This document shows positions 1 through 9,875 of a stretch of DNA of 64,000 bases, in pieces. Position numbers and translations under genes: made by a program. The stretch spans positions 477-64,476 of the forward strand of contig CAYFGQ010000013.1 in the NCBI GenBank assembly GCA_964342525.1, in the 5' to 3' direction. Below the pieces are notes generated by a model. It was given only the letters and a program-made list of their open reading frames with translations, ran no database searches and had not been told where the DNA came from. How positions within the stretch are numbered: the stretch's first letter is position 1; each line of letters begins with the position of its first letter. The stretch comes from an uncultured Arcobacteraceae bacterium. Its GTDB lineage: Bacteria > Campylobacterota > Campylobacteria > Campylobacterales > Arcobacteraceae.

Positions 1-73
1 CAAGAATAACTGTACTTAAAACCTGAAGAAGCAACTTATTCCCAAAACTTGCTTTATTTGATTTATTTAACAT
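1..73 (-). CDS. 5' end (24 codons) of an unidentified gene that runs off the window
   Basis: The ATG (rc of 71-73) is preceded by an AAGGGGGA Shine-Dalgarno-like stretch. It reads MLNKSNKASFGNKLLLQVLSTVIL and stays open to the window edge. The hydrophobic stretch suggests a membrane anchor. Confidence 0.35.
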   Translation of the reverse strand, partial: MLNKSNKASFGNKLLLQVLSTVIL

Positions 74-204
74 AACATCCCCCTTATGTTCACAATTAGA
101 ATGTATATAATCTATTATATAAATAGTAACATAAAAGTGTCAGAAATGAGTCGGAAAAATTACAATTTGATTACAAAGTTTGAAAATTTATTATTATTTA
201 CACA

Positions 205-223
205 GCTGTCAGAGATTGACAGC
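205..223 (-). terminator. Hairpin just downstream of the 230..1069 gene
   Basis: GCTGTCA-GAGAT-TGACAGC forms a 7-bp stem 7 nt after the stop codon. There is no clear U-run. Confidence 0.4.
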
Positions 224-229
224 CATATA

Positions 230-1069
230 TTATTCTACAATTTGATGAAGTTTTGAGCAGTGTTCAAGGTGTACACCCATTCCACACATATCTTGTTCAA
301 TATCCCAAAATGAATGAACATGTGCATTATAGATATAGATAAAAATCTCATCCCCTTTTTCTAAGAAATGTTTTTTACCAAACTCTGCATATGCAGTTGC
401 CCCAGCAGCTATTAAAAGCCCTTTTGATTTTTCTATATCTTTTAAAAATGGAGTTAGCTCTTCTAATGGTCCACAATCCTCTTGATTGTTGAACTTTTCA
501 ACCATCCATGTTCTTAACTGCTCAAAAAAATAAGAGTATGAGTTTACAGCACTTGTAGTACCATAATCATGTACAATACCATCTCTTTTTACAAATGAGC
601 TAATATGATAATTATTAAGTATCCCATCTTTTGTGAAGTTATCTATCTCAATAAACTCATTTGAAATACCCTTAGTACTTTTACCCCAATTTTTTTTCGT
701 ACTAAGTTTTTTACCATTTTGAATTCTGTCTGATGTATCATTAAAAGCTGTAAACATTTTTGGAATAATATCTATCATCTTCCCATCTTCATATACAAAA
801 TCACATACCATACCAAGCTCTGCTTCAACTTGCATATGTTCTAAACCAGCATGGTTAATAGTATCATCACAAATTGGAAACTCAGCCAAAAAGCTATCGT
901 GTCCTGGTATATAAAAAGGGAAAAGCCCCTTAGGTGCATCTTTTGCCGATGATACCTGAGCAAATTCATCACCCTCTCCAGCTTCATCTAAGTGGTTTGC
1001 AAAGTTTCCTGCAACACCAAAACCTAAATAATCCTTTAAAAACTCTGGTGTATATAAATGTTTTTTCAT
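230..1069 (-). CDS. Fumarylacetoacetate hydrolase (FAH) family-like protein
   Basis: 279-aa ORF. The motif ..VEAELGMVCDF.. followed by ..AFNDTSDRIQNGKK.. resembles the FAH-family E-x-E-L...N-D-x-S-x-R-x-x-Q pattern. The assignment is by eye only. Confidence 0.5.
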   Translation of the reverse strand: MKKHLYTPEFLKDYLGFGVAGNFANHLDEAGEGDEFAQVSSAKDAPKGLFPFYIPGHDSFLAEFPICDDTINHAGLEHMQVEAELGMVCDFVYEDGKMIDIIPKMFTAFNDTSDRIQNGKKLSTKKNWGKSTKGISNEFIEIDNFTKDGILNNYHISSFVKRDGIVHDYGTTSAVNSYSYFFEQLRTWMVEKFNNQEDCGPLEELTPFLKDIEKSKGLLIAAGATAYAEFGKKHFLEKGDEIFIYIYNAHVHSFWDIEQDMCGMGVHLEHCSKLHQIVE

Positions 1070-1247
1070 AATTTTTTCCTAATTAAAATATTTTTCTTTT
1101 TTATACAAATAGTATATAAATAATATAAGTGCTTTTTAGCACAACAATTGTTGACAATAAGTTTTTTAAAAGTGATTGTTTATAAGTGATTATCTAAAGA
1201 TGAAAGGATATTATCGGGGGAAAAACAAGGGCTTAAAGCCCTATGTT

Positions 1248-1361
1248 CTATGTATTAATACTTCCTTTTTCATGGATAGATTCACTACAATCATAGACGA
1301 CCACACAGACACTATCAGTGAGTAGTGAGAGGACGAGCTGTTTTGCAAAAACCTTATCCAT
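1248..1361 (-). CDS. Candidate small ORF (37 aa), below the ORF-track cutoff
   Basis: AGGAG lies 7 nt upstream of the ATG. It translates as MDKVFAKQLVLSLLTDSVCVVVYDCSESIHEKGSINT*. The segment is locally GC-richer than its surroundings, and the short hairpin GGGCTTAAAGCCC (1229-1241) follows. Confidence 0.3.
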   Translation of the reverse strand: MDKVFAKQLVLSLLTDSVCVVVYDCSESIHEKGSINT

Positions 1362-1401
1362 AAATTTTCTCCTAGTATTAATTCGCTCTAAATTCTACTT
1401 A

Positions 1402-2385
1402 TTAAGCAAAAAATCTTGTGTTTACTTCGTCCATTAGTTTAGCACCAGAGAAGTGTGCTCTTTGTACTAATTCCCAGAAGTATCTATAAGTAGCTCTATC
1501 GTGTAACTCACCATCGTATTGGATTGGTCCCCACTCAGCATCTTGTGCTAATAATAAAATGTTTTGTGCAGCTTCAAGCTCTGTGAAGTCTGGTTTCATA
1601 GCATCAACGATTGCTTGTACTTGTGTTGGGTAAATTGACCACATTCTCATAAATCCAAACTCGTTTCTTGCTCTCTCAGCATCTTTATATGTTTGGTATG
1701 GGTTTTTAAGATCAAGTGTTACGTTGTGCGCTGGGATAACATGATTTTGGATAGCAGCTTGAGCAACTTTTGCTTTAGCAGCACCAATTAATCTGTGATC
1801 AAATTGACCTGGAGATCTCATATTGATCGCTGGGATAGCACCTTGGTAACCAGATACAAAGTCCATTAGACCAAAATCTAAAACTTGTAGCCATGGTAAT
1901 GTAGCAGTTTTCTCTACATCTTGTAATGCACCATGAGTTTCAATTAAGATGTGAATTGGAATCTCTCTTGTGATACCAGCTTCTTTAGCAACTTTTTGAA
2001 TATACTCAATTTGCATTTTTGCATCTTCGTAACAAGTTGATTTTGGTAATGTGATATAAGCAAGTTTTTCACCAGCACCTGGTACTAGAATATCAACATC
2101 TTGTCTCCAATCTGGGTGCGAAGCATCGTGGATTCTTGTTCCAGCCATTGCATATGGGTTAGCATCAGAGTTAACAACTCTTACGATCATCTCAGCGTGC
2201 TCAACCTCTTTACCAGTCTCAGCTCCATCTTCACAATCACAAGTGATATCAAAAACAGGTCCAAGTTTTTCTTGCATTTGGAAACCTTTAAGGATTAGCT
2301 TTTCGCTACCTGCAAAGTGTTCACAAGTTGGGATAATTGGTAAAGATTTACCAGATTCAAATAGTGCTTCATTTGGATGTGTCAT
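1402..2385 (-). CDS. HpcH/HpaI aldolase / citrate lyase beta (CitE)-like acyl-CoA lyase
   Basis: 327 aa. The N-terminal acidic motif ..FDITCDCEDGAE.. is typical of malyl-CoA/citramalyl-CoA lyase-type TIM barrels. It lies in an operon with the hydratase and ligase genes. Confidence 0.65.
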   Translation of the reverse strand: MTHPNEALFESGKSLPIIPTCEHFAGSEKLILKGFQMQEKLGPVFDITCDCEDGAETGKEVEHAEMIVRVVNSDANPYAMAGTRIHDASHPDWRQDVDILVPGAGEKLAYITLPKSTCYEDAKMQIEYIQKVAKEAGITREIPIHILIETHGALQDVEKTATLPWLQVLDFGLMDFVSGYQGAIPAINMRSPGQFDHRLIGAAKAKVAQAAIQNHVIPAHNVTLDLKNPYQTYKDAERARNEFGFMRMWSIYPTQVQAIVDAMKPDFTELEAAQNILLLAQDAEWGPIQYDGELHDRATYRYFWELVQRAHFSGAKLMDEVNTRFFA

Positions 2386-2447
2386 TATTATTTCCTTTAT
2401 TTAAATTTTGTTTTTTCTTTTATCAGCAGAGCAAAAAATTGCTCTTA

Positions 2448-3500
2448 CTATTTCTTCTTTGGGATTACAACTGTGTAATCTAAATCTAAAACAACGTTTG
2501 GTAAATATTTACCATCTTCACCCTTAGGTGATTCAACGTCTACTGCCTTCATATTTTTAAGACCTACAGTTCTAAGTCTTAATAGTCCAATGTCATCTCT
2601 ATTTGCTACATCTATCTTCTCTACTATTTCAGTATAAGCATAGATTGTATCCCCTGCAAATGTTGGATTAGCATGAGCTCCAGCATTTATAGAATATAAC
2701 CATTGTGCATTTTGTAATCCATTGAATGAATTACTTCTTGCTATTGAGATTACATGTCCCCCATACATTAATCTCTCACCCATTGGTCCAGCTTTCATCA
2801 TAAAGTCATCAAAATGCACTTTTGCATTGTTTTGATAAAGCTTAGTAGCCAATGTGTGGTCACTATCATCAATAGTGATACCTTCTGGATGATTAAGTCT
2901 TTCCCCTACTTCATAATCATCAAAGAAGTAAACACCACCAGTAGCATCTGTATCGATGTTCCCCTGTACTGGAATGTTTATATTTTCGCTTACTTCTAAA
3001 GTTTTAGCGAATGTTGGAACATCATTAGTTCCAAGCTTAGTTGTTTTATCTTTTTTGTGTACCATAACCCATCTTTTTAGGTTAAGTACTTCTTTTTCAT
3101 CTTGGTTATATCCGATAGAGTGAACATATACAACTCCACTCTTACCGTTTGAGTTTTCTTTTAGACCGATTACTTCAGTCTCAAGCCTAACTGTATCCCC
3201 CACAAATACAGGATTAGGGAAAGAAACCTCTGCATAACCAAGGTTTGCAATTGCGTTTAGAGATATATCTTGAACTGATTTACCAAATGTTAGGTGAAAC
3301 ATTAATAGATCATCAAGTGGTTTTTTCTCATAACCCATCTCTTGTGCTAATAGATCAGATGAGTGTAGAGCAAATCTACTTCCAGTCAAGGCGATGTAAA
3401 AAGATACATCACCATCTGTAATTGTTCTTGGAAGTGGATGTTTTATTTTTTGTCCGATTGTGAAATCTTCGAAAAAGTTTCCTAAATTAATTTTAGACAT
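2448..3500 (-). CDS. Double-hotdog MaoC-family enoyl-CoA hydratase (mesaconyl-CoA/itaconyl-CoA hydratase-like)
   Basis: 350 aa, the size expected for a two-MaoC-domain hydratase. The N-terminus FEDFTIGQKIKHPLPRTITDGDVSFYIALTG is typical of this family. Confidence 0.7.
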   Translation of the reverse strand: MSKINLGNFFEDFTIGQKIKHPLPRTITDGDVSFYIALTGSRFALHSSDLLAQEMGYEKKPLDDLLMFHLTFGKSVQDISLNAIANLGYAEVSFPNPVFVGDTVRLETEVIGLKENSNGKSGVVYVHSIGYNQDEKEVLNLKRWVMVHKKDKTTKLGTNDVPTFAKTLEVSENINIPVQGNIDTDATGGVYFFDDYEVGERLNHPEGITIDDSDHTLATKLYQNNAKVHFDDFMMKAGPMGERLMYGGHVISIARSNSFNGLQNAQWLYSINAGAHANPTFAGDTIYAYTEIVEKIDVANRDDIGLLRLRTVGLKNMKAVDVESPKGEDGKYLPNVVLDLDYTVVIPKKK

Positions 3501-3510
3501 TTATCTTTCC

Positions 3511-6024
3511 TTACTTACCAAATAGGTTTTGACCTAATGATTTATATTTTTCATATAACGAAATCATTTTCTTCGCCCAAAGGATTCTATATCTATCGAT
3601 TAGTTTTCCGTTGTATTGAATAACCTCTTTACCATCTTTTTCAGCTTCTTCGTATAGAGAGATCATCTCTTCATACTCTTGAACCTCTTTTTGTTTTGGT
3701 GTAAAGATATCATTGATATACTCTACTTGGATTGGGTGGATAAGTGCCTTACCATCAAATCCGATATTAAATGCATCTTTTGTTGAATCTTCACAAGCAA
3801 ACTCATCATGTACATCATAGTGTGGTCCATCAATTACTGTCTTACCATATGCTTTAGCAGATAAGGCAATTCTTGCTAGGTAGTTAAACATAGCTTTTGA
3901 ACCTTTTTTGATATCAATTTGAAGTCTATTTGCAAGATTGTTTGATCCTACAACGATAACTTCAGTTCTTTTTGATGTTGCACAAATATCTGGTGAATTT
4001 AAGATAGCTAATGGTGTCTCTATCATAACCATCATAGCTACTTCAGGAAATTGCTCCATCGCTTTCTCAGCTTCAAGTACTTGCTCTTTTGTCTCAATCA
4101 TAGAGAAAAGAACCGCATCTACTTCAATCTCTTTTATAAATTCCATATCTTTAGCAAATTCTTCAGTTCCAACTGGATTTACTCTAATAACTCTCTCAGA
4201 TGCTCCAAATGTTGGACTCTCAGCATATACTTCTTTTAAGGTTTCTCTTGCAGTCTCTTTTTGCTCTGCTAAGATAGCTTCAATATCAAATACAACCGAA
4301 TCAGCTAATACAGATCTTGATCTCTCAACATACTTTTTATTGTATCCTGGAACAAATAACATAGATCTTCTTGCTTTATACTCAACAATCTCTTCACCAG
4401 ATTCTCTTGAATGGTATTGATCATGTAAGTTTTTAACAAGTTGTTTTCTAAGAACTTTACCATTTTTAGTTCTTGGGTAATCAGCCATTCCAAAGATAAA
4501 CTTAGGAGCTTTATATTTAGCTAAATTATCTTGAGCAAATTTTAAAATCTCTGCTTCTTTTTCTTCACTTAGAGCTTCATATCCAATTACAGCGATTGCT
4601 ACAAGTGTTTTACCTTTATCTATATCTAGTCCAAAAGCAACACAATCAGCTACATCATTATGAGTTTTTACAACTCTTTCGATCTCATGTGGAGATACTC
4701 TGAATCCCATAGTATTGATGATATCATCTTTTCTACCGATAAACCAGATATAACCATCGCTATCTCTTTTTGCATAGTCACCAGTAAAGAAGTAACCATC
4801 ATGTCTAGCTTTAGCTGTCTCTTCCTCTAGTTGCCAATACTCTAAGAATAGTCCTGGATCATCTTCACCGATACAAATCATACCCTCTTCTTCTAATCCA
4901 ACCTCTTCTAAAGTTTCAGGATTTAAAAGCTTAACAGTGTGTCCTGGTTGAACAAATCCAGCAGACCCTGGTCTAATTGGGTTGTTCTTAGAGTGTGAAA
5001 TATAGTATGAACACTCAGACATTCCAATAGCTTCAAAGATATCTTGTTTAAATCTATCTCTCCATAATCCAATCATCTCATCAGATAAATGTTCACCAGC
5101 AGACATACAATATCTTAATGAAGGACAATCTTCAATTGTAAATTCTGTCTTTTGAACAATCTGTCTGTAGATTGTAGGTACACCAATGAAGATAGTACAG
5201 TTATGCTTCTTAATTAGATCCACCCATGTTCCAGCGTCATTTCCACCCTCATAAGCGATTACTGTGTGACCATTGTATAATGGATCCATAAGTGCTGATC
5301 CAAGTACATATGTCCAGTTAAATTTACCAGAGTGCATGATTCTATCATTCTCTTGGAAATCAAACCAATACTCTGTAGCAGGTGTTCTACCTACAAGTGA
5401 TCTATGTGAGTGAAGTACACCTTTTGGATAACCAGTTGTTCCTGATGTATATACAAGGTATGCTGGCTCACCAGACTTTGACTTATAGTGGTTTGGTGTA
5501 GTATCTGTATCTCTTAAAATATCATTTAAAGCATATACATTGATACCTTTTGGCTTCTCAAATCCCTCTACAGAATCACAAGCTGCTACGATAATTGTTT
5601 TTAAGTTATCTACATTTTCTAAATATGGAACTAGGTTCTCATACATAGTTGCAGACATTACAATTGCAGATGCTTGAGAATCTTCTGCAAGATACTTAAC
5701 TTCTGATCCACTTAAAAGTGTTGAAGTTGGTACTGCAATAATACCCGCTTTGATCGCACCAAAAAATGAAATAGGATAAGCTAATGAGTTTTTTAAACAA
5801 ACTAGTACTCTATCTCTTGCACCAATCCCAATACTTCCTAGAAAGTTTGCAACTTGGTCAGACTTTGTTGCTAAATCTTTATAAGTAATCTCATCAGTCC
5901 CTAGCTTATCATCTTCGATGATCATAGCTGTACTGTTTTCTTTTGCAGTTCCAACATGAGCACTTGTACAAGCAACTCCAATGTTTAAGAATTCTGGGAT
6001 TTCAATTTCAATTGTTGAACTCAT
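3511..6024 (-). CDS. Fusion protein: AMP-forming acyl-CoA ligase (N-terminal ~545 aa) + CitE/HpcH-like lyase domain (C-terminal ~290 aa)
   Basis: The AMP-binding signature YTSGTTGYPKGV, YFFTGDY and the terminal ..PRTKNGKVLRK mark the ligase part. The reading frame then continues without a stop into RRSMLFVPGYNKKY...VVFDIEA...IALIHP, which resembles a CitE/HpcH barrel. Confidence 0.8.
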   Translation of the reverse strand: MSSTIEIEIPEFLNIGVACTSAHVGTAKENSTAMIIEDDKLGTDEITYKDLATKSDQVANFLGSIGIGARDRVLVCLKNSLAYPISFFGAIKAGIIAVPTSTLLSGSEVKYLAEDSQASAIVMSATMYENLVPYLENVDNLKTIIVAACDSVEGFEKPKGINVYALNDILRDTDTTPNHYKSKSGEPAYLVYTSGTTGYPKGVLHSHRSLVGRTPATEYWFDFQENDRIMHSGKFNWTYVLGSALMDPLYNGHTVIAYEGGNDAGTWVDLIKKHNCTIFIGVPTIYRQIVQKTEFTIEDCPSLRYCMSAGEHLSDEMIGLWRDRFKQDIFEAIGMSECSYYISHSKNNPIRPGSAGFVQPGHTVKLLNPETLEEVGLEEEGMICIGEDDPGLFLEYWQLEEETAKARHDGYFFTGDYAKRDSDGYIWFIGRKDDIINTMGFRVSPHEIERVVKTHNDVADCVAFGLDIDKGKTLVAIAVIGYEALSEEKEAEILKFAQDNLAKYKAPKFIFGMADYPRTKNGKVLRKQLVKNLHDQYHSRESGEEIVEYKARRSMLFVPGYNKKYVERSRSVLADSVVFDIEAILAEQKETARETLKEVYAESPTFGASERVIRVNPVGTEEFAKDMEFIKEIEVDAVLFSMIETKEQVLEAEKAMEQFPEVAMMVMIETPLAILNSPDICATSKRTEVIVVGSNNLANRLQIDIKKGSKAMFNYLARIALSAKAYGKTVIDGPHYDVHDEFACEDSTKDAFNIGFDGKALIHPIQVEYINDIFTPKQKEVQEYEEMISLYEEAEKDGKEVIQYNGKLIDRYRILWAKKMISLYEKYKSLGQNLFGK

Positions 6025-6036
6025 CTTTTCTCCTTA

Positions 6037-7170
6037 CTATATACGACCAAATGGCCAGTTCTCTTTAAATGTATGAAGTGGCATTTTGTTTAGTACTTTT
6101 AGTGCAAACGCTTGCTCTTCTTTACCTAAATTCTTAAGTGCATATGCTCTTAAAATATTTTGTAATGATTTACCAAACATTGGTGGATCTAACATCTCAC
6201 CCTCATATCTAATTGCACCAGATAATAATGCATCAGTTTCAATTGCTGCTTTTAAGATATCAATATCTCTTGCAATCTCATTTGGTGATGGTGTAAATGC
6301 AACCTTACATACATTGATGTGATTTGGTGTAATTACCTGCTTACCTGTAAGACCCATTGCTGTTTCTCTCTTAGCATGAGCATATACATGTCTAGAAGCA
6401 TCATCACCATGTAAATCTAACCATCTTCTAATATCTTTTTTCTCTACACATGAATCAGGTAATGAATTTGGTGTAAGTAATACTTCAACCCCACCAATAA
6501 CACCTTTACCATTTACTCTTGCTTCCATAGTAAGAATATTAAAGAATGTCTCTAATTCATCTATCCACCCCTCTGGAGTAATTTTATACGCCATAGCTTT
6601 AGAGAAATCGTGGATACCAAATACTAAGTGATTTACTGTTGAAAACTGCATTAATCTATCAGCAATCTTTAGTGACTTTGGATGCTCTATAATTGGTTGA
6701 ATCTCTAAATCTGCTCCAATTGAAACTAACCATGAAGATAAGTCTCTAATCTCAGCTGATCCATAAACCTCACCTGCTTTTGCTAAAACGATCGCATCAA
6801 CATATTGATGAACTTGTCTTAACATTTTTAAATCTTCTTCATACTCTTCAGTTCTGAATGGATTTATTCTAAGAGCAATTTGAAAGTCTCTCTCTGGAAA
6901 CTTTGGTAACTCTTGGATTAAAAGTTCTCTTGACATAGCTTTTTGTCTACAACCATCTTCTAAGTCAAAAAGTACTGTGTGTGCTTTTGTCTTATAAGCA
7001 TGTTTTTGAAGTCTAAGCTTAGCTTGATCCATACTTTCATATGTTCCATCTAATGGATTGAACTTAATTGGTGGGTAATAAATTTGAATCCCTGGCCAAT
7101 GTCCACCAAGTACTGGTGTCAAATCATCGTTTTCTGTTAACGTTGATAAATCTGTAATTATTGATGACAT
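6037..7170 (-). CDS. HpcH/HpaI aldolase / CitE-like acyl-CoA lyase (first gene of the operon)
   Basis: 377 aa with the motif HTVLFDLEDGC. It sits 12 nt upstream of the fusion gene on the same strand. Confidence 0.65.
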   Translation of the reverse strand: MSSIITDLSTLTENDDLTPVLGGHWPGIQIYYPPIKFNPLDGTYESMDQAKLRLQKHAYKTKAHTVLFDLEDGCRQKAMSRELLIQELPKFPERDFQIALRINPFRTEEYEEDLKMLRQVHQYVDAIVLAKAGEVYGSAEIRDLSSWLVSIGADLEIQPIIEHPKSLKIADRLMQFSTVNHLVFGIHDFSKAMAYKITPEGWIDELETFFNILTMEARVNGKGVIGGVEVLLTPNSLPDSCVEKKDIRRWLDLHGDDASRHVYAHAKRETAMGLTGKQVITPNHINVCKVAFTPSPNEIARDIDILKAAIETDALLSGAIRYEGEMLDPPMFGKSLQNILRAYALKNLGKEEQAFALKVLNKMPLHTFKENWPFGRI

Positions 7171-7400
7171 TTTTTTACCTTTTCTTTTTTAATTTTCTTC
7201 AAAACTAAGGTGGATCCTCACCGAAAATTTCTATAGATTTAAATGGGTATTTTAAATCAGATAGGGAATTTAAACATAGGTTTTTTTAAAGTTTTCCGAG
7301 GTTTTTTGACCTAATTTTTTTTTTAAGTTTAGATTTATAATCTCTGTATGAACGATTTTTTCGGAGTTGAATCAAGTTTTAAAACTTTTTGTTTTATAAT

Positions 7401-7439
7401 ATGAAACTCAAATTTCATTTTATTTCATATAGTGAAATT
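7401..7439. promoter_or_regulatory. Candidate operator: two adjacent TGAAA/TTTCA inverted repeats in the divergent promoter region
   Basis: The two palindromes are ATGAAA-N6-TTTCAT (7401-7418) and ATTTCA-TATAG-TGAAAT (7423-7439). They lie between the lyase operon start (7170) and the IclR gene. Confidence 0.3.
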
Positions 7440-7465
7440 TTATTTTTCAAATTTCTCACAAAATT

Positions 7466-8233
7466 TTGAAAAAAATTTTTTTATTTGGAGTTTTTTTGTC
7501 TGTATCACATAATAAATCTCTTTTAAAAGGTCTTCAAGTTTTAAAAGAAGTGATGAATTCTACTGAACCAATCAATGCAAATACACTATGCGCTAGACTT
7601 GATATAGATAAGAGTACAATGTCTAGATTGATCACTACTTTAATGAGCGAAGAATTTATAAAATATGTGGATAATACTAAAGAGATAGTTTATGCAGATG
7701 TAATGGGAAATCTATCAAAGAAAAATAGACAAGAACTTATAGTAAAACATACTGAGAATATTTTAAATGAAGTATTCAGCCTTACAAATGAGTGTGCATA
7801 TATGACAGTATATGATGAAGAGATGTCTTTAAATCTAAATCAAATAGATAATTCAAATAGAGTTTTAAAAAATAGAAACACTATAGGGTCACATACACCA
7901 CTTCATTTAAGTGCTATGGGAAAAGTTATCCTAGCTTATACAGATATAGATGTAACTACTCTAAACCTTGAAGCATTTACTTCAAAAACAATCACTCAGA
8001 TAAAAAGACTAAGATTTGAGCTAGCAAAAATTCAAGATCAAGGTTTTGCTATTGCTGATGAAGAATTTGAATATGGACTTAGATCTTTAGCTATTCCATA
8101 CTATAGTAAAAATGGAGAATTTATTGGTGCTATAGGGATATCTGGACTTGCAAATAGATTACCAATTGAAAAAATGGAAGAATATGCTGAACAAATGGTA
8201 AAAATAGCTTCTAAAAACCTTATCTCGTTTTAA
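7466..8233 (+). CDS. IclR-family transcriptional regulator
   Basis: It has an N-terminal wHTH (..SLLKGLQVLKEV..ANTLCARLDIDKSTMSRLITTL..) and a C-terminal effector domain (..GLRSLAIPYY..GAIGISG..). The true start may be the TTG at 7496, which has GGAG 5 nt upstream. Confidence 0.8.
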   Translation: MKKIFLFGVFLSVSHNKSLLKGLQVLKEVMNSTEPINANTLCARLDIDKSTMSRLITTLMSEEFIKYVDNTKEIVYADVMGNLSKKNRQELIVKHTENILNEVFSLTNECAYMTVYDEEMSLNLNQIDNSNRVLKNRNTIGSHTPLHLSAMGKVILAYTDIDVTTLNLEAFTSKTITQIKRLRFELAKIQDQGFAIADEEFEYGLRSLAIPYYSKNGEFIGAIGISGLANRLPIEKMEEYAEQMVKIASKNLISF

Positions 8234-8274
8234 TATCAACTCTCTTTTAGATTTACTTTTATAAAATTCGAACT

Positions 8275-8982
8275 ATGAAAGAAAAAATATATATGTTTCC
8301 AGGCTTTATGTGTGATAAAAGGCTTTGGAGTAAAATAATACCACTATTAGAAAATGACTATGAGATTGTTCACATACCTTTGCCACTAAGTAGCTGTTTT
8401 GAAGAGATAAATCAAATACTAGATGAAAAACTGCCAAAAGAGCCTATAAATGTATTAGGATTCTCTTTAGGTGGATATGTATGTTCATACTTTGCTATAA
8501 AACACCCTGAACGTGTTAAAAAAATCTTTATGGTTTCATCAACTGCTGGTAAACCAAATGAAAAAGAAGATAAAAGAAGAGCAGAAAAAATACAGAAAAT
8601 GTTAGACTTTGGTTTTGAAGAGTTATCCTATGAAAAATCAAAATCACTTTTAGAAGAGCAAAATCAAAATGATGAAGAGATGATAAAAGTACTACAAGAT
8701 ATGTTTAACGATCTTGGATATGATCACTTTATAACTCACCTACAATCTACACTACATAGAAAACATTTAATAAATGAGATGAGTGATCTAAAAATACCTA
8801 TCCATTTTTTCTATAGTACAGAAGATAGACTATTAAACCATCCATTTATGAAAGAGATAAGTGAAAGAAAGCTAAATCATGTAACAATCAACTCAAGAGT
8901 AGGAACAAGCCATAATGTCCCTTTAGAAGATCCAATAAATCTAGTAAAACATATAAAAGAGTGGATGGATACAAATCCATAA
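8275..8982 (+). CDS. Alpha/beta-fold hydrolase
   Basis: The nucleophile elbow GFSLGG is present, and the length (235 aa) and C-terminal His region (GTSHNVPLE) fit the fold. Confidence 0.7.
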   Translation: MKEKIYMFPGFMCDKRLWSKIIPLLENDYEIVHIPLPLSSCFEEINQILDEKLPKEPINVLGFSLGGYVCSYFAIKHPERVKKIFMVSSTAGKPNEKEDKRRAEKIQKMLDFGFEELSYEKSKSLLEEQNQNDEEMIKVLQDMFNDLGYDHFITHLQSTLHRKHLINEMSDLKIPIHFFYSTEDRLLNHPFMKEISERKLNHVTINSRVGTSHNVPLEDPINLVKHIKEWMDTNP

Positions 8983-8994
8983 ACTCTTTTATAT

Positions 8995-9017
8995 CTTATT
9001 TCAAAATTTGAAATAAG
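8995..9017. terminator. Bidirectional hairpin between convergent genes
   Basis: CTTATTTCAAA-A-TTTGAAATAAG is a near-perfect 23-nt palindrome lying between the stop codons at 8982 and 9019. Confidence 0.55.
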
Positions 9018-9018
9018 A

Positions 9019-9582
9019 TTAAACGTCAGCCATAGCTTTAAATCTCACCCCAGCTCTACCAACATTTTCAACATGAACATGGAATCTATCATCAAGCCTT
9101 CCCTCTTCAATATACTGCTTTTTAATCTCAAGAATCAAAGGTACAGTTTTACCCGGAATATCCACTTGCTGATAAAACTCACAAAATAAAGCACTTTGAG
9201 TTGATCTAATAATTGGTGGAAAACCATCTACCATATGCTCAGTCTCAATACAAAACTTCTCAATCTCCCCATCCTCTTTGGGTAAAGGTGTAGCACAATT
9301 TTTTACATCTTCAGTATTATCTTTATTTACAAAACAAATAGTCGCTTTTCCTGTCTTTAAAATATTGTGTAAAGAATCCTTTTGGGTACCATCATCCTTA
9401 TGCCCAATAGATACTACAACAGTAGCTGGATTTGATGAGAGTGGTGTAAAGTAAGAAAAAGGAGCAGCATTTAAAACCCCATCATGCTCCGTAACTACCC
9501 ACGCAATAGGTCTTGGAACCACTGTATCTGACATCAATTTATATCTATTTAGATCGTTTACATCTACATAATCTAAAACCAT
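9019..9582 (-). CDS. Flavin reductase-like (FMN-binding split-barrel) protein
   Basis: The stretch ..VVPRPIAWVVTEHDGVLNAAPFSYFTPLSSNPATVVVSIG.. is typical of the flavin reductase domain. Confidence 0.75.
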   Translation of the reverse strand: MVLDYVDVNDLNRYKLMSDTVVPRPIAWVVTEHDGVLNAAPFSYFTPLSSNPATVVVSIGHKDDGTQKDSLHNILKTGKATICFVNKDNTEDVKNCATPLPKEDGEIEKFCIETEHMVDGFPPIIRSTQSALFCEFYQQVDIPGKTVPLILEIKKQYIEEGRLDDRFHVHVENVGRAGVRFKAMADV

Positions 9583-9653
9583 TTTTAACCCCCATTAAAA
9601 ATATTTTTTGAAGATTATAAAAAATTGGATTAAAAGTCGCATAATTAAATGGT

Positions 9654-9875
9654 TTAATTTTTTGTATTTTTATCATCGTATAAATTAAACCATACCTTAG
9701 TACCATCTAAAATCCCCATAGTCATAGCAATAATAAACGAAATTACAAAATCTATAGTAAATGAAGAAAATATAATAAAATTTATCCCTAAAATTATAAA
9801 TAAATATTTTATATATATTAAATTAATCCATTTTGATATAATCATCAAAGCTAAACCTACAATAATTGCTAACAT
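9654..9875 (-). CDS. Small hydrophobic (two-TM) protein
   Basis: 73 aa and strongly hydrophobic. It overlaps the upstream ABC ATPase gene by 7 nt, which suggests translational coupling. Confidence 0.4.
   Translation of the reverse strand: MLAIIVGLALMIISKWINLIYIKYLFIILGINFIIFSSFTIDFVISFIIAMTMGILDGTKVWFNLYDDKNTKN

What the first reader, a model, noticed from the sequence alone, without database searches (positions are those of the whole stretch)
1402..8233. IclR-flanked acyl-CoA cluster with three CitE/HpcH lyase domains, a double-hotdog hydratase and a CoA ligase: candidate C5-dicarboxylate (itaconate/mesaconate/citramalate) or glyoxylate-shuttling pathway
The gene order on the minus strand is lyase-like (6037-7170), ligase::lyase-like fusion (3511-6024), MaoC double-hotdog hydratase (2448-3500) and lyase-like (1402-2385). 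A divergent IclR regulator follows (7466-8233). The enzyme families match known chemistry. One example is itaconate to itaconyl-CoA to citramalyl-CoA to acetyl-CoA plus pyruvate. Another is mesaconyl-CoA to beta-methylmalyl-CoA to glyoxylate plus propionyl-CoA, then malyl-CoA, as in the 3-hydroxypropionate bi-cycle, ethylmalonyl-CoA and methylaspartate pathways. Here an ATP-dependent ligase replaces the usual CoA transferase. Three paralogous lyase-type domains in one operon is more than the simple itaconate pathway needs. Such a module is unexpected in a campylobacterotal genome, where central carbon metabolism is usually streamlined.
Basis: partly seen in the sequence, partly recalled or inferred. 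Interest (0 to 1): 0.62.

Follow-up and report, generated by a model that had tools for sequence, protein, structure and literature searches.

The report
Known, uncharacterised mesaconyl-CoA/methylmalyl-CoA operon
The genes are real and expressed, but this four-gene operon was already described in Arcobacter in 2007 and in methanol-using bacteria; it most likely passes a five-carbon acid through CoA esters to yield glyoxylate and propionyl-CoA, and no enzyme in it has been tested.

Summary
All ORFs lie at the stated coordinates. There are three CitE/HpcH-like domains, a double-hotdog hydratase, an AMP-forming ligase fused to one CitE-like domain, and a divergent IclR gene. Marine metatranscriptome contigs cover the operon.

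- **Hydratase:** it is a close relative of true mesaconyl-C1-CoA hydratases (50% identity to M. extorquens MeaC, 8 of 8 active-site residues kept). This favours the mesaconyl-CoA/beta-methylmalyl-CoA reading over the itaconate reading.
- **CitE-like proteins:** they form three deep, uncharacterised clades. Two keep all seven superfamily catalytic residues. The fused one lacks two.
- **Not unexpected, not new:** the cluster is conserved across Arcobacteraceae and was described as ab1917-ab1921 of A. butzleri in 2007. The same five-domain set occurs in Methylophilaceae, Methylophaga, Kangiellaceae, Gallionellales and Thiobacillus. There it often sits beside prpBCD, sdh and malic enzyme, and is listed in the literature as part of a 'methylcitric acid cycle' cluster of unknown role.

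Best model (inferred): a CitE-type thioesterase, a class I fumarase acting as mesaconase, and the ligase move CoA from citramalyl-CoA to mesaconyl-C1-CoA via free acids. The hydratase and the third lyase then release propionyl-CoA and glyoxylate. No enzyme has been assayed.

The parts
6037..7170 (-). L1 (= 'cyl3' of Methylophilaceae, ab1917-type): 377-aa divergent CitE-like protein and first gene of the operon. Always sits directly upstream of the ligase. Proposed (S)-citramalyl-CoA lyase working in the condensing direction (inferred).
   Evidence: Pfam HpcH_HpaI 29.6 bits. NCBIfam RipC_Ccl and CitE about 54 bits, far below their cut-offs. Best PDB hit is CLYBL 5vxc, 43.5 bits. All seven superfamily residues are present: D69, E71, D72, R101, E162, D188, D328. 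59-67% identical to orthologues in Beta- and Gammaproteobacteria. Forms its own deep clade.
4411..6024 (-). Ligase domain of the 837-aa fusion (residues 1 to about 538): an AMP-forming acyl-CoA ligase (called 'prpE' in Methylophilaceae lists). Proposed mesaconate-CoA ligase forming the C1 ester (inferred).
   Evidence: AMP-binding 245 bits and AMP-binding_C. Core motifs TSGTTGYPK (193), FFTGD (412), GRKD (430) and KAPK (505) are present. The best NCBIfam hits are generic subfamilies, all far below cut-off, and AcsA scores 214 against a cut-off of 725. The motif AIGMSE at residue 332 places Gly where acetyl-CoA synthetase has its pocket Trp (combined with my own knowledge of Acs). 88% mean identity within Arcobacteraceae. 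54-60% identity to stand-alone orthologues.
3511..4410 (-). CitE-like domain of the fusion (residues about 539-837; = 'cyl2'). Proposed hydroxyacyl-CoA (citramalyl-/malyl-CoA) thioesterase, or a remodelled derivative of one.
   Evidence: HpcH_HpaI 117.5 bits. CitE model 154 bits against a cut-off of 443. It keeps D580, E582, R614, E669 and D810. It has A583 where the DxED motif ends and N695-N696 where the Mg-ligand Asp should be. This pattern is conserved in 120 homologues. Stand-alone orthologues keep the Mg Asp (50/54) and have Glu at the lid position (50/54). Only 31-38% identical to them. A fusion of this type appears in a single 50%-identity cluster.
2448..3500 (-). Double-hotdog (MaoC) hydratase, an orthologue of mesaconyl-C1-CoA hydratase / beta-methylmalyl-CoA dehydratase (Mch/MeaC).
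   Evidence: PDB hits 4e3e (373 bits) and 8hgn (357 bits). 51.2% and 49.7% identity. All eight MeaC site residues are kept as F72, S80, N86, R143, N224, H229, Y246 and G247 (PMC10164722). Pfam MC_hydratase scores above its cut-off.
1402..2385 (-). L3 (= 'cyl1'; the family of PDB 3QQW/3R4I): 327-aa CitE-like protein and last gene of the operon. Proposed beta-methylmalyl-CoA (and perhaps malyl-CoA) lyase (inferred).
   Evidence: 458 bits to 3qqw and 335 bits to 3r4i. The best characterised hit is the R. sphaeroides malyl-CoA lyase 4l9y, 52 bits. All seven catalytic residues are kept: D50, E52, D53, R84, E149, D175, D296. The hydratase gene lies immediately upstream in 60 of 80 loci. prpB follows it in 41.
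1228..1242 (-). Terminator-like hairpin followed by a T-run, 160 nt downstream of the L3 stop codon. Probable end of the operon.
   Evidence: One search found 3 terminator-like sites against 0.2 expected. RNA contigs stop at about 1167, and none covers DUF5718.
7171..7465 (.). AT-rich divergent intergenic region between L1 and the IclR gene. Presumed promoter and operator region.
   Evidence: GC about 0.27-0.30. Promoter-like hexamers occur no more often than in shuffled sequence. There are several low-complexity inverted repeats, for example 7443-7454/7462-7473. No operator could be assigned.
7466..8233 (+). IclR-family transcriptional regulator, divergent from the operon. Effector unknown.
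   Evidence: IclR_C 100.9 bits and HTH_IclR 30.2 bits. Also present upstream of the cluster in A. nitrofigilis, but absent in Aliarcobacter lanthieri. Transcribed at low depth. Outside Arcobacteraceae a GntR/UTRA regulator takes its place.
230..1069 (-). DUF5718 protein, a lineage-specific member of the FAH superfamily. A conserved neighbour of the operon in Arcobacteraceae, probably in a separate transcription unit. Role unknown; an oxaloacetate or acylpyruvate decarboxylase/hydrolase type of reaction is possible.
   Evidence: PF18985 293 bits. 335 homologues, and all named ones are Arcobacteraceae. Adjacent to the cluster in all three genomes inspected. AF2 model pLDDT 79.9, pTM 0.83. The top 50 Foldseek PDB hits are all FAH-fold. 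E82, E84 and D111 are invariant. No RNA contig covers it.

Best explanation
The four genes form one IclR-controlled operon: L1, the ligase::CitE-like fusion, an Mch-type hydratase, and L3. [quoted passage not shown]

Proposed steps:
1. L1 condenses acetyl-CoA with pyruvate to (S)-citramalyl-CoA.
2. The CitE-type domain fused to the ligase (a stand-alone protein in other phyla) hydrolyses that thioester to free (S)-citramalate, which pulls the condensation forward.
3. The neighbouring class I fumarase, acting as a mesaconase, dehydrates citramalate to mesaconate. Imported citramalate or mesaconate could enter here.
4. The ligase domain re-activates mesaconate with ATP and CoA at C1.
5. The hydratase converts mesaconyl-C1-CoA to beta-methylmalyl-CoA.
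6. L3 cleaves it to propionyl-CoA and glyoxylate.

Together, the thioesterase, mesaconase and ligase do with ATP what the intramolecular CoA transferase Mct and the hydratase Meh do in Chloroflexus. That would explain why the thioesterase-type domain and the ligase are adjacent or fused.

Propionyl-CoA then enters the methylcitrate cycle. Glyoxylate is condensed with acetyl-CoA to malate, either by L3 with the thioesterase or by a malate synthase.

Shown here: gene structure, expression, orthology of the hydratase, the catalytic-residue patterns, and the gene neighbourhoods. Inferred: every substrate assignment for L1, L3, the fused domain and the ligase, and the direction of flux.
For: 1. The hydratase is orthologous to characterised mesaconyl-C1-CoA hydratases, with 8 of 8 site residues kept.
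2. L3 is paired with this hydratase: immediately downstream in 60 of 80 loci, and the two occur alone together in Cupriavidus, Paraburkholderia and Sphingobium. Its nearest characterised relative is a malyl-/beta-methylmalyl-CoA lyase. It keeps all catalytic residues.
3. prpB and prpC directly follow L3 in 41 of 80 loci and prpD in 34. sdhCDAB and a malic enzyme are interleaved. A module that produces propionyl-CoA and consumes pyruvate closes a cycle with these genes, because 2-methylcitrate synthesis is effectively irreversible (established biochemistry).
4. L1, the ligase and the cyl2-type domain are present or absent together (41, 40 and 57 of 80; full set in 40). This fits an upstream sub-module feeding the hydratase-L3 sub-module.
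5. Stand-alone cyl2 proteins have Glu at the lid position in 50 of 54. This is the only described exception in the superfamily and marks the malyl-CoA thioesterase clade (PMC3832036).
6. CitE-type enzymes bind a 2-hydroxy-acid CoA ester through Mg. That fits citramalyl-/malyl-CoA as the thioesterase substrate better than mesaconyl-CoA.
7. A class I fumarase lies beside or near the module in the window's organism, Al. lanthieri, A. butzleri, Thiobacillus and Tepidiphilus. Class I fumarases are mesaconases (Kronen et al. 2015, cited in PMC12290011 and PMC5592240).
8. No CoA transferase was seen in the window, in the Pfam-annotated Arcobacteraceae neighbourhoods or among the flanking genes scanned elsewhere. 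Most of the 80 loci were screened only for the window's own proteins and a few others, so this is not a full survey.
9. The ligase is not an Acs/PrpE orthologue and has Gly at the Acs pocket-Trp position.
10. The operon is transcribed in situ.
Against: - No enzyme of the cluster has been assayed in any organism.
- The three CitE-like clades are at most 30% identical to any characterised enzyme. Which one does which aldol or hydrolysis reaction is a guess.
- In the Arcobacter-type fusion itself, the lid residue is Asp, not Glu, and the Mg-ligand Asp is replaced by N/K/S. The thioesterase signature seen in stand-alone orthologues is therefore absent from the protein in this window, and that domain may have changed or lost its activity.
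- I could not obtain an Mcl2 sequence, so clade membership of cyl2 was not tested.
[quoted passage not shown] This argues against an acetate-assimilating role there.
- The window holds no prp genes.
- The IclR regulator and a nearby chemoreceptor would also fit a simple inducible catabolic operon for an external acid.
- The ligase's substrate and regiochemistry are unknown.
Confidence: 0.45

Rival explanations
1. Reverse direction, as proposed by Miller et al. in 2007 and resembling the second cycle of the 3-hydroxypropionate bi-cycle. L3 condenses propionyl-CoA with glyoxylate to beta-methylmalyl-CoA. The hydratase dehydrates it to mesaconyl-C1-CoA. A thioesterase frees mesaconate. The class I fumarase hydrates it to (S)-citramalate. 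The ligase makes citramalyl-CoA. L1 cleaves that to acetyl-CoA and pyruvate.
For: It uses every gene. The pathway order is exactly the reverse of the gene order L1-ligase-cyl2-hydratase-L3. The universal L1-ligase adjacency would then link consecutive steps. It fits the same co-inheritance pattern. It was proposed in PMC2147049. Mch enzymes dehydrate beta-methylmalyl-CoA about ten times faster than they run the reverse reaction (PMC5592240).
Against: It needs a CitE-type enzyme to hydrolyse mesaconyl-CoA. That substrate lacks the 2-hydroxyl group through which this superfamily binds substrate to Mg. With prpBCD adjacent, two sinks for propionyl-CoA would sit in one cluster and nothing would supply propionyl-CoA or glyoxylate in C1-grown methylotrophs. 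Those organisms lack a glyoxylate shunt (PMC6794327). Miller's companion idea that the methylcitrate cycle runs backwards is thermodynamically implausible.
Confidence: 0.2
2. A purely catabolic, substrate-induced operon for an external C5-dicarboxylate (mesaconate, or citramalate via the fumarase), like the lower half of the methylaspartate cycle or the end of the ethylmalonyl-CoA pathway. The ligase activates mesaconate. The hydratase and one lyase yield propionyl-CoA plus glyoxylate. The second lyase and the thioesterase-type domain turn glyoxylate plus acetyl-CoA into malate (Mcl1/Mcl2-like). Citramalate is not synthesised internally.
For: A divergent IclR regulator, and dCache- or NIT-type chemoreceptor genes close to the cluster, in Arcobacteraceae. 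All five domains get a role that mirrors the R. sphaeroides Mch-Mcl1-Mcl2 set (PMC3832036). [quoted passage not shown] Strong induction under in-situ conditions in Methylotenera (PMC3728764).
Against: One would expect some genomes to carry ligase, hydratase and L3 without L1 and cyl2. None was seen: the ligase never occurs without L1 in the 80 loci. Retention in a 1.3-Mb streamlined methylotroph genome, embedded among prp, sdh and malic enzyme genes, suggests a central role rather than a peripheral one. No dicarboxylate transporter gene is in the operon.
Confidence: 0.2
3. An itaconate degradation pathway (Ict/Ich/Ccl-like, RipABC-like) in which a ligase replaces the CoA transferase.
For: The N-terminal hotdog half of the hydratase gives its best NCBIfam hit to RipB/Ich (118 bits). 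The CitE-like domains hit RipC/Ccl weakly.
Against: All those scores are far below the equivalog cut-offs of 340 and 375. Over its full length the hydratase is 50% identical to mesaconyl-C1-CoA hydratases. The characterised haloarchaeal Mch has no activity with itaconyl-CoA (PMC5592240). The linkage to prpBCD makes no sense for a pathway that yields acetyl-CoA and pyruvate. Three lyase-type proteins are more than this pathway needs.
Confidence: 0.04
4. A malate-splitting module. The ligase makes (S)-malyl-CoA from malate and the fused CitE-like domain cleaves it to acetyl-CoA plus glyoxylate, as malate thiokinase and malyl-CoA lyase do in the serine cycle. The other genes then process the glyoxylate.
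For: A fusion of two domains often joins consecutive steps. The best PDB hit of the fused domain is the M. extorquens malyl-CoA lyase 5ugr (95 bits). Arcobacter grows on malate.
Against: The fused domain lacks the Mg-ligand Asp and the last Asp of the DxED motif. Its stand-alone orthologues carry the thioesterase-type Glu. Glyoxylate plus propionyl-CoA would then lead to mesaconyl-C1-CoA with no onward route, which gives the same problems as the reverse-direction rival.
Confidence: 0.06

Closest known systems
A. butzleri RM4018 cluster ab1917-ab1921 (Miller et al. 2007, PLoS One, PMC2147049)
   Same: The same genes in the same order: CitE-like, Acs-like::CitE fusion, enoyl-CoA hydratase, CitE-like, then a class I ('anaerobic') fumarase. 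The fusion proteins of Arcobacteraceae are 78-95% identical to the one in the window. That paper already related the cluster to the 3-hydroxypropionate and citramalate cycles and to glyoxylate, propionyl-CoA, pyruvate and acetyl-CoA.
   Different: That proposal was based on annotation only. It ran the pathway towards pyruvate plus acetyl-CoA and assumed a reversed methylcitrate cycle. In the window's organism, DUF5718 and a chemoreceptor gene lie between the operon and the fumarases, and an IclR gene is present.
[quoted passage not shown]
   Same: cyl1 = L3, maoC = the hydratase, cyl2 = the fused CitE-like domain, cyl3 = L1, and 'prpE' = the ligase. Identities to the window's proteins are 59-69% for L1, L3 and the ligase, and 47-56% for the hydratase. 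The role is described as unknown, and the cluster is highly expressed in situ.
   Different: In Methylophilaceae the ligase and cyl2 are separate genes in two divergent sub-clusters, interleaved with sdh, malic enzyme and prpBCD, under a GntR regulator. cyl2 keeps the Mg-ligand Asp and has Glu at the lid position. In the window the two are fused, the active site is remodelled, the regulator is IclR, and the prp genes are not nearby.
End of the ethylmalonyl-CoA pathway in R. sphaeroides and M. extorquens (Mch/MeaC, Mcl1, Mcl2) and the lower half of the haloarchaeal methylaspartate cycle (Mct, Mch, Mcl, AceB)
   Same: An Mch-type hydratase (50% identical). CitE-superfamily lyase(s) for beta-methylmalyl-CoA and malyl-CoA. 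A CitE-superfamily thioesterase or synthase step. The products are propionyl-CoA and glyoxylate.
   Different: Mesaconyl-C1-CoA there comes from methylsuccinyl-CoA, or from mesaconate via a class III CoA transferase. Here an AMP-forming ligase is present. The three CitE-like proteins fall outside the Mcl1 clade. Propionyl-CoA is linked here to the methylcitrate cycle rather than to the methylmalonyl-CoA route.
Citramalate cycle proposed for Rhodospirillum rubrum (Ivanovsky/Berg; reviewed in PMC8307300)
   Same: The same sequence of intermediates as the best model: acetyl-CoA plus pyruvate, citramalate, mesaconate, mesaconyl-CoA, beta-methylmalyl-CoA, then glyoxylate plus propionyl-CoA. The published scheme even includes an oxaloacetate decarboxylase step.
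   Different: The cycle has never been established genetically, and the genes for several of its steps are unknown. It uses a mesaconate CoA transferase and propionyl-CoA carboxylation. Here a ligase and the methylcitrate cycle would take those places.
Second cycle of the Chloroflexus 3-hydroxypropionate bi-cycle (Mcl, Mch, Mct, Meh)
   Same: An Mch orthologue (51% identical to 4E3E). Interconversion of the C1 and C4 CoA esters of C5 acids, and of beta-methylmalyl-CoA and citramalyl-CoA.
   Different: No intramolecular CoA transferase (Mct) and no separate Meh are encoded. One trifunctional Mcl there is replaced here by three distinct CitE-like proteins. The CoA shift would go through free acids at the cost of ATP.
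PDB 3QQW (Reut_B4148) and 3R4I (Bxe_B2899), structural-genomics 'putative citrate lyases'
   Same: L3 belongs to this family (458 and 335 bits; 62% and 54% identity) and has the same catalytic residues.
   Different: The function of these structures is unknown (PMC3832036). In Cupriavidus the gene is paired only with the hydratase and a GntR regulator.

Membership tests
CitE-like / HpcH-HpaI superfamily (L1, 6037-7170) | HpcH_HpaI profile match, plus the seven conserved residues: D42, E44, D45, R76, E141, D168, D299 in MCL_R numbering | tested here: met
   Pfam 29.6 bits against a cut-off of 25. D69, E71, D72, R101, E162, D188 and D328 are all present.
CitE-like / HpcH-HpaI superfamily (L3, 1402-2385) | The same profile and the same seven residues | tested here: met
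   Pfam 27.5 bits. 458 bits to 3qqw. D50, E52, D53, R84, E149, D175 and D296 are all present.
CitE-like / HpcH-HpaI superfamily (fused domain, 3511-4410) | The same profile and the same seven residues, which PMC3832036 describes as absolutely conserved | tested here: inconclusive
   The profile match is strong (117.5 bits). Only five of the seven residues are kept: A583 replaces D45 and N695-N696 replace the Mg ligand D168. This is conserved in 120 homologues. It belongs by fold but has an atypical active site.
Malyl-CoA/beta-methylmalyl-CoA lyase (Mcl1/MCL_R, MCL_C and haloarchaeal clades) | Membership of one of the characterised MCL clades, or a score above the equivalog cut-off | tested here: not met
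   NF041626 scores 25-35 bits against a cut-off of 500. Identity to MCL_R and the M. extorquens Mcl is 22-30%, and the proteins form separate deep clades. This lowers the claim 'it is an Mcl1', not the claim 'it works like one'.
Malyl-CoA/beta-methylmalyl-CoA lyase | Reversible cleavage of beta-methylmalyl-CoA or malyl-CoA | not testable with these tools
   Needs an enzyme assay.
(3S)-malyl-CoA thioesterase (Mcl2) clade | Glu in place of the lid catalytic Asp (PMC3832036) | tested here: not met
   The window's fused domain has D810, and 118 of 120 Arcobacteraceae homologues have D. Stand-alone orthologues in other phyla have E in 50 of 54, so the feature is met in the wider family but not in this protein.
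(3S)-malyl-CoA thioesterase (Mcl2) clade | Phylogenetic grouping with R. sphaeroides Mcl2 | not tested
   No Mcl2 sequence or model was available: none in the PDB and none in NCBIfam.
Mesaconyl-C1-CoA hydratase (Mch/MeaC) | Fused double hotdog of about 350 aa matching the MC_hydratase family | tested here: met
   PF19315 68 bits against a cut-off of 26.5, covering residues 6-314. Two MaoC stretches.
Mesaconyl-C1-CoA hydratase (Mch/MeaC) | Close similarity to characterised enzymes, and the malate-site residues F71, S79, N85, R142, N226, H231, Y248 and G249 of MeaC | tested here: met
   49.7% identity to 8HGN and 51.2% to 4E3E. All 8 residues are conserved. The haloarchaeal equivalog NF041625 is not reached (67.6 against 560), as expected for a bacterial sequence.
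Itaconate degradation (Ict/Ich/Ccl, RipABC) | Ich and Ccl equivalogs plus an itaconate CoA transferase | tested here: not met
   RipB_Ich 118 bits against 340. RipC_Ccl 32-97 bits against 375. No CoA transferase in the window or its flanks.
Citrate lyase (CitDEF) | CitE equivalog score, with citD and citF neighbours | tested here: not met
   TIGR01588 scores 17-154 bits against 443. No citD or citF in the neighbourhood.
ANL superfamily acyl-CoA ligase | AMP-binding and AMP-binding_C domains with the core motifs | tested here: met
   245 and 45 bits. Motifs TSGTTGYPK, FFTGD, GRKD and KAPK are present.
Acetyl-/propionyl-CoA synthetase (Acs/PrpE), as annotated in A. butzleri and Methylophilaceae | Equivalog score, and a Trp flooring the acyl pocket | tested here: not met
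   AcsA TIGR02188 scores 214 against 725. No PrpE model is among the 25 best hits. The AIGMSE motif has Gly at the Trp position (combined with my own knowledge of Acs W414).
IclR family regulator | N-terminal HTH_IclR and C-terminal IclR_C effector domain | tested here: met
   30.2 and 100.9 bits. No equivalog is reached, so the effector is unknown.
FAH superfamily (DUF5718, 230-1069) | FAH fold and the Glu-Glu-Asp metal triad | tested here: met
   The top 50 Foldseek PDB hits are all FAH-fold, with E down to 5e-7, though TM-scores are only 0.39-0.53. E82, E84 and D111 are invariant in 30 sequences. Assigning these as the triad rests on motif resemblance, not on a structural superposition.

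The most novel reading that the evidence does not exclude
Together with the methylcitrate cycle, succinate dehydrogenase, fumarase and a C4-decarboxylating enzyme, the module forms a closed cycle that has never been demonstrated. The decarboxylating enzyme would be malic enzyme in Methylophilaceae and perhaps the FAH-type DUF5718 in Arcobacter. The cycle would convert acetyl-CoA to glyoxylate without isocitrate lyase. It would be an ATP-driven version of the long-disputed citramalate cycle, with a CitE-type thioesterase, a mesaconase and an AMP-forming ligase replacing a CoA transferase. This would explain the 'unknown role' of the highly expressed methylcitric acid cycle cluster in Methylophilaceae. 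It would also be widespread among methylotrophs and lithoautotrophs that lack a glyoxylate shunt.
Probability: 0.3. Interest if true: 0.8.

Novelty: already known. Interest (0 to 1): 0.45.

Why it matters
The cluster in this window is an orthologue of one described in 2007, so the finding itself is not new. What remains open is the biochemistry.

- **Uncharacterised families:** three widely conserved CitE-like families and an acyl-CoA ligase have never been assayed. One of the families has had two crystal structures of unknown function (3QQW, 3R4I) since 2011.
- **Breadth:** the same module sits in the 'methylcitric acid cycle' cluster of Methylophilaceae. Its role and substrate have been called unknown since about 2008, even though in lake-sediment conditions it is transcribed more strongly than the main carbon-assimilation pathway.
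- **What this analysis adds:** it connects the Arcobacter and methylotroph literatures. It shows that the module spans several bacterial classes, including streamlined 1.3-Mb genomes. It gives a concrete model with one enzyme per step that can be tested with a handful of purified enzymes.
- **If the model holds:** it would supply the genetic basis for a citramalate-type route to glyoxylate and propionyl-CoA. It would also add enzymes (a mesaconate-CoA ligase and new lyase/thioesterase specificities) useful for engineered C5-dicarboxylate and CO2-fixation pathways.

Tried and rejected
- **Itaconate pathway.** Rejected. The equivalog scores are far below their cut-offs, the hydratase is Mch-type, and there is no CoA transferase.
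- **True citrate lyase.** Rejected. The CitE score is below its cut-off and there is no citD or citF.
- **Ligase as Acs/PrpE** (the published annotations). Not supported.
- **Mcl2 membership of the fused domain.** Could not be tested, because no Mcl2 sequence, structure or curated model was available.
- **DUF5718 against PDB sequences.** Nothing found. Only the predicted fold identified it.
- **Cupriavidus, Sphingobium and Leptospira flanks.** Pfam scans of my own ORF calls were mostly empty, because simple ORF calling fails at 65% GC. Only a GntR/UTRA regulator after L3 was recovered.
- **IclR operator.** The intergenic region is so AT-rich that its inverted repeats and promoter-like hexamers are no more frequent than chance.
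- **First read-laying attempt.** It failed on a filter at 9789-9824 and was repeated on 1-9700.
- **Rest of the window.** Surveyed for prp, glyoxylate or transporter genes. Only housekeeping genes were found.
- **Literature.** Searches for Reut_B4148, Bxe_B2899, ab1917/ab1918 and 'mesaconyl-CoA synthetase' found nothing beyond the 2007 paper.
- **Acyl-pocket analysis of the ligase.** Not possible, because model coordinates cannot be inspected with these tools.

Full report
**Observation.**
- On the minus strand: 6037-7170 (377 aa, here L1), 3511-6024 (837 aa), 2448-3500 (350 aa) and 1402-2385 (327 aa, here L3).
- On the plus strand: 7466-8233, the regulator.

Pfam and NCBIfam confirm the families.
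- L1 and L3 match HpcH_HpaI weakly, at 29.6 and 27.5 bits against a cut-off of 25.
- The 837-aa protein holds AMP-binding, AMP-binding_C and HpcH_HpaI (117.5 bits, residues 553-764).
- The 350-aa protein has two MaoC halves and matches MC_hydratase.
- The regulator has HTH_IclR and IclR_C.

The fusion is genuine. All 120 listed homologues carry both the AMP-binding and the HpcH domain, and 119 of them are near full length at 811-842 aa.

The locus lies about 4 kb from gyrB-dnaN, and dnaA follows on the source contig, so it is close to the replication origin. The source is a marine (Tara Oceans) Arcobacteraceae contig.

**Expression.** Two metatranscriptome runs from the same sample as the source contig hold 84% and 56% of the region's sampled words.
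- Their contigs cover 1167-6811. One 3.6-kb contig (2183-5829) joins the 5' end of L3, the hydratase and most of the fusion.
- DUF5718 (230-1069) has no RNA contig, although the DNA run covers it.
- A terminator-like hairpin at 1242-1228 on the minus strand lies between L3 and DUF5718.

The four genes therefore behave as one expressed operon. These are assembled contigs, so this shows presence, not quantity.

**Hydratase.** Its best solved relatives are 4E3E (373 bits), a Chloroflexus MaoC dehydratase that served as the search model for MeaC, and 8HGN (357 bits), the mesaconyl-CoA hydratase MeaC of M. extorquens.
- Identity is 51.2% and 49.7%.
- All eight residues that line the malate-occupied active site of MeaC (F71, S79, N85, R142, N226, H231, Y248, G249; PMC10164722) are conserved as F72, S80, N86, R143, N224, H229, Y246 and G247.

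This is the firmest functional anchor in the cluster. [quoted passage not shown] The characterised haloarchaeal Mch has no activity with itaconyl-CoA (PMC5592240).

**The three CitE-like proteins.** I took the catalytic residues defined for the R. sphaeroides malyl-CoA lyase (D42, E44, D45, R76, E141, D168, D299; PMC3832036) and aligned against reference sequences rebuilt from the printed HMMER alignments.
- L1 and L3 keep all seven residues.
- The fused domain keeps five. It reads D-I-E-A where the superfamily has DxED. It has N695-N696 where the second Mg ligand should be.
- Across 120 Arcobacteraceae homologues, A583 is present in 119, N695 is invariant, and position 696 is K, N or S.

The three proteins are not recent paralogues. 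They share 18-21% identity with one another and at most 30% with MCL_R, the M. extorquens Mcl, CLYBL or Rv2498c. They form three deep clades.

L3 belongs to the family of two structural-genomics entries of unknown function, 3QQW and 3R4I (458 and 335 bits; PMC3832036).

No equivalog model (CitE, RipC/Ccl, haloarchaeal Mcl) comes near its cut-off for any of the three.

**This cluster is already in the literature.** Miller et al. [quoted passage not shown] I found no later experimental work.

The fusion is conserved at 78-95% identity across Arcobacter, Halarcobacter, Malaciobacter, Poseidonibacter and Aliarcobacter. So it is not an oddity of this genome.

**It reaches far beyond Campylobacterota.** A scan of reference genomes with an alignment of the L3 family found at least 588 relatives. 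I searched the best 80 loci with the window's proteins.
- The hydratase is present in 72 loci and lies immediately upstream of L3 in 60.
- The cyl2-type domain is present in 57, L1 in 41 and the ligase in 40. All five occur together in 40.
- The full set occurs in Methylophilaceae, Methylophaga, Kangiellaceae, Colwelliaceae, Gallionellales, Thiobacillus, Tepidiphilus and others.
- Cupriavidus, Paraburkholderia and Sphingobium keep only the hydratase and L3. Leptospira and Dechloromonas have L3 alone.
- The ligase never appears without L1.

The ligase and the CitE-like domain are separate genes everywhere except one MAG, L078 (840 aa), which is also the closest relative at 72-80% identity. They are adjacent in 15 loci and in different sub-clusters in 25.

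An exhaustive search of 1.84 billion representatives found only one 50%-identity cluster with this C-terminal fusion.

**Context in methylotrophs.** In a 1.3-Mb Methylophilaceae genome (L026) the order is: ligase, L1, sdhB, sdhA, sdhD, sdhC, NADP malic enzyme and GntR on one strand, then cyl2, hydratase, L3, prpB, prpC and prpD on the other.
- Across the 80 loci, prpB and prpC accompany the module in 41, prpD in 34, the GntR regulator in 37, sdhA in 28 and malic enzyme in 27.
- That group reports the cluster is transcribed more strongly than the RuMP genes under in-situ conditions. [quoted passage not shown]
- Methylophilaceae have no glyoxylate shunt and no ethylmalonyl-CoA pathway (PMC6794327).

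**A clue to the fused domain.** Stand-alone cyl2 proteins keep the Mg-ligand Asp in 50 of 54. They also carry Glu at the lid catalytic position in 50 of 54. Zarzycki and Kerfeld describe that substitution as the only exception in the superfamily and as typical of the clade of the malyl-CoA thioesterase Mcl2. This suggests that cyl2 is a hydroxyacyl-CoA thioesterase rather than a lyase.

The fused lineage (Arcobacteraceae and L078) differs. It has Asp at the lid position and has lost the Mg-ligand Asp. This domain also evolves much faster than its partners:
- 31-38% identity to stand-alone orthologues, against 47-69% for the other four proteins.
- 72% mean identity within Arcobacteraceae, against 88% for the ligase part.

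Whether the fused domain is still a thioesterase is therefore open. I could not test Mcl2 membership directly, because no Mcl2 sequence was available.

**Fumarase linkage.** A class I Fe-S fumarase lies beside or near the module in several lineages:
- The window's organism, just beyond the left edge of the window, next to a class II fumarase.
- Aliarcobacter lanthieri.
- A. butzleri.
- Thiobacillus and Tepidiphilus.

'fum' is also in the Methylophilaceae list. Class I fumarases hydrate mesaconate to (S)-citramalate (Kronen et al. 2015, cited in PMC12290011 and PMC5592240). A step involving free acids is therefore likely, and it gives the ligase something to activate.

**Most likely mechanism (inferred).**
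1. L1 condenses acetyl-CoA with pyruvate to (S)-citramalyl-CoA.
2. The cyl2-type domain hydrolyses it to citramalate.
3. The class I fumarase dehydrates citramalate to mesaconate.
4. The ligase re-activates mesaconate at C1.
5. The hydratase gives beta-methylmalyl-CoA.
6. L3 cleaves it to propionyl-CoA and glyoxylate.

The thioesterase, mesaconase and ligase together achieve, at the cost of ATP, the shift of CoA from C4 to C1 that Mct and Meh achieve in Chloroflexus. This would explain why the thioesterase-type domain and the ligase are neighbours or fused: one releases the acid and CoA, and the other takes them up again.

The model also explains three other observations:
- The co-inheritance of {L1, ligase, cyl2} as an upstream sub-module and {hydratase, L3} as a downstream one.
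- The linkage to prpBCD, sdh, fumarase and malic enzyme. With these genes every intermediate is regenerated, and the net result is acetyl-CoA converted to glyoxylate.
- The lack of any CoA-transferase gene in the neighbourhoods I annotated.

The intermediates are those of the 'citramalate cycle' proposed for R. rubrum, whose genes have never been established (PMC8307300).

**Rivals.**
- **The reverse direction (Miller's)** uses the same genes and is even colinear with the gene order. It requires a CitE-type enzyme to hydrolyse mesaconyl-CoA, which lacks the 2-hydroxyl that this superfamily uses to bind substrate at Mg. It would also place two propionyl-CoA sinks in one cluster.
- **A purely catabolic route for external mesaconate or citramalate** fits the IclR regulator, the nearby chemoreceptors, and the failure of A. 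butzleri to grow on acetate. It does not explain why the ligase never occurs without L1.
- **The itaconate and malate-splitting readings** are weak.

[quoted passage not shown] My confidence in the full stepwise model and its direction is about 0.45.

**Neighbour DUF5718.** It follows the operon in all three Arcobacteraceae genomes inspected.
- The family has only 335 members, and every named one is from Arcobacteraceae.
- Sequence search against the PDB found nothing.
- An AlphaFold model (pLDDT 79.9, pTM 0.83) matches only FAH-superfamily structures. Among them are the oxaloacetate decarboxylases YisK, Cg1458 and FAHD1. TM-scores are modest, 0.39-0.53.
- E82, E84 and D111 are invariant and resemble the FAH metal triad.

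An oxaloacetate decarboxylase is a step in the published citramalate-cycle scheme, and malic enzyme holds a comparable place in the Methylophilaceae cluster. This is only a lead.

**Verdict.** The cluster has been known since 2007 but remains biochemically uncharacterised. Its main value is as an entry point to a widespread and unexplained pathway.

Noticed in passing
window 230-1069 (-): DUF5718 is an FAH-superfamily protein. The AF2 model (pLDDT 80) matches only FAH-fold structures in the PDB, and E82, E84 and D111 are invariant. The family is small (335 proteins) and appears restricted to Arcobacteraceae. It follows the operon in all three genomes checked but had no transcript contig in the metatranscriptomes.
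   Followed up: yes
L081 15952-21591 (source contig, just left of window position 1): Beyond DUF5718 lie a dCache_1 chemoreceptor (801 aa), a class I Fe-S fumarase (497 aa) and a class II fumarase FumC (465 aa), side by side. The class I enzyme may act as the mesaconase of the pathway. A. nitrofigilis has only FumC at this position, and Al. lanthieri only the class I enzyme.
   Followed up: partly
L026 1-14503 (Methylophilaceae LSUCC0665); also L009-L068: In Methylophilaceae and Methylophaga the module is embedded among prpB, prpC, prpD, sdhCDAB, an NADP malic enzyme and a GntR regulator. It is retained even in 1.3-Mb streamlined genomes. The gene listed as 'mdh' in the literature scores as a malic enzyme in my scan.
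   Followed up: partly
L001-L005, L037, L065 (Cupriavidus, Paraburkholderia, Sphingobium): These genomes keep only the hydratase-L3 pair, followed in Cupriavidus by a GntR/UTRA regulator. This is the context of the PDB entries 3QQW and 3R4I, whose function is unknown. It suggests they are beta-methylmalyl-CoA lyases paired with an Mch.
   Followed up: partly
L078 5193-10978 (MAG labelled Gammaproteobacteria BB34, GC 38%): This is the only non-Arcobacteraceae locus with the same ligase::lyase fusion (840 aa) and gene order. It is 72-80% identical to the window's proteins and shares the remodelled active site. It may reflect horizontal transfer or a mis-binned contig.
   Followed up: no
L036 10981-11481 (+) (Kangiella): A hotdog-fold thioesterase (166 aa) directly follows L3 in Kangiella. 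In that genome L3 is divergent from the genes for L1, the ligase, cyl2 and the hydratase.
   Followed up: no
window 8275-8982 (+) and 9019-9582 (-): An alpha/beta hydrolase (weak MenH and thioesterase-type hits) lies just downstream of the IclR gene, followed by a flavin reductase-like protein. The hydrolase is not next to the cluster in A. nitrofigilis or Al. lanthieri, but a flavin reductase gene is again nearby in A. nitrofigilis.
   Followed up: partly
window 58535-60487 (-): A 650-aa protein made almost entirely of ankyrin repeats (Ank_2 232 bits, five stretches). This is unusual for a free-living marine bacterium.
   Followed up: no
window 60706-62274 (-): A Suv3-type DEXQ-box RNA helicase (DEXQc_Suv3 180 bits plus SUV3_C). 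This family is best known from mitochondria.
   Followed up: no
window 19714-21231 (-): A 505-aa ORF with no Pfam match at E <= 1e-6, next to a class 3 lipase-like protein (17916-19061).
   Followed up: no
window 7466-8233 (+): The IclR ORF as listed starts at a TTG and gives 255 aa. Gene callers on the identical source contig give 245 aa, so the true start is probably about 30 nt further in.
   Followed up: no
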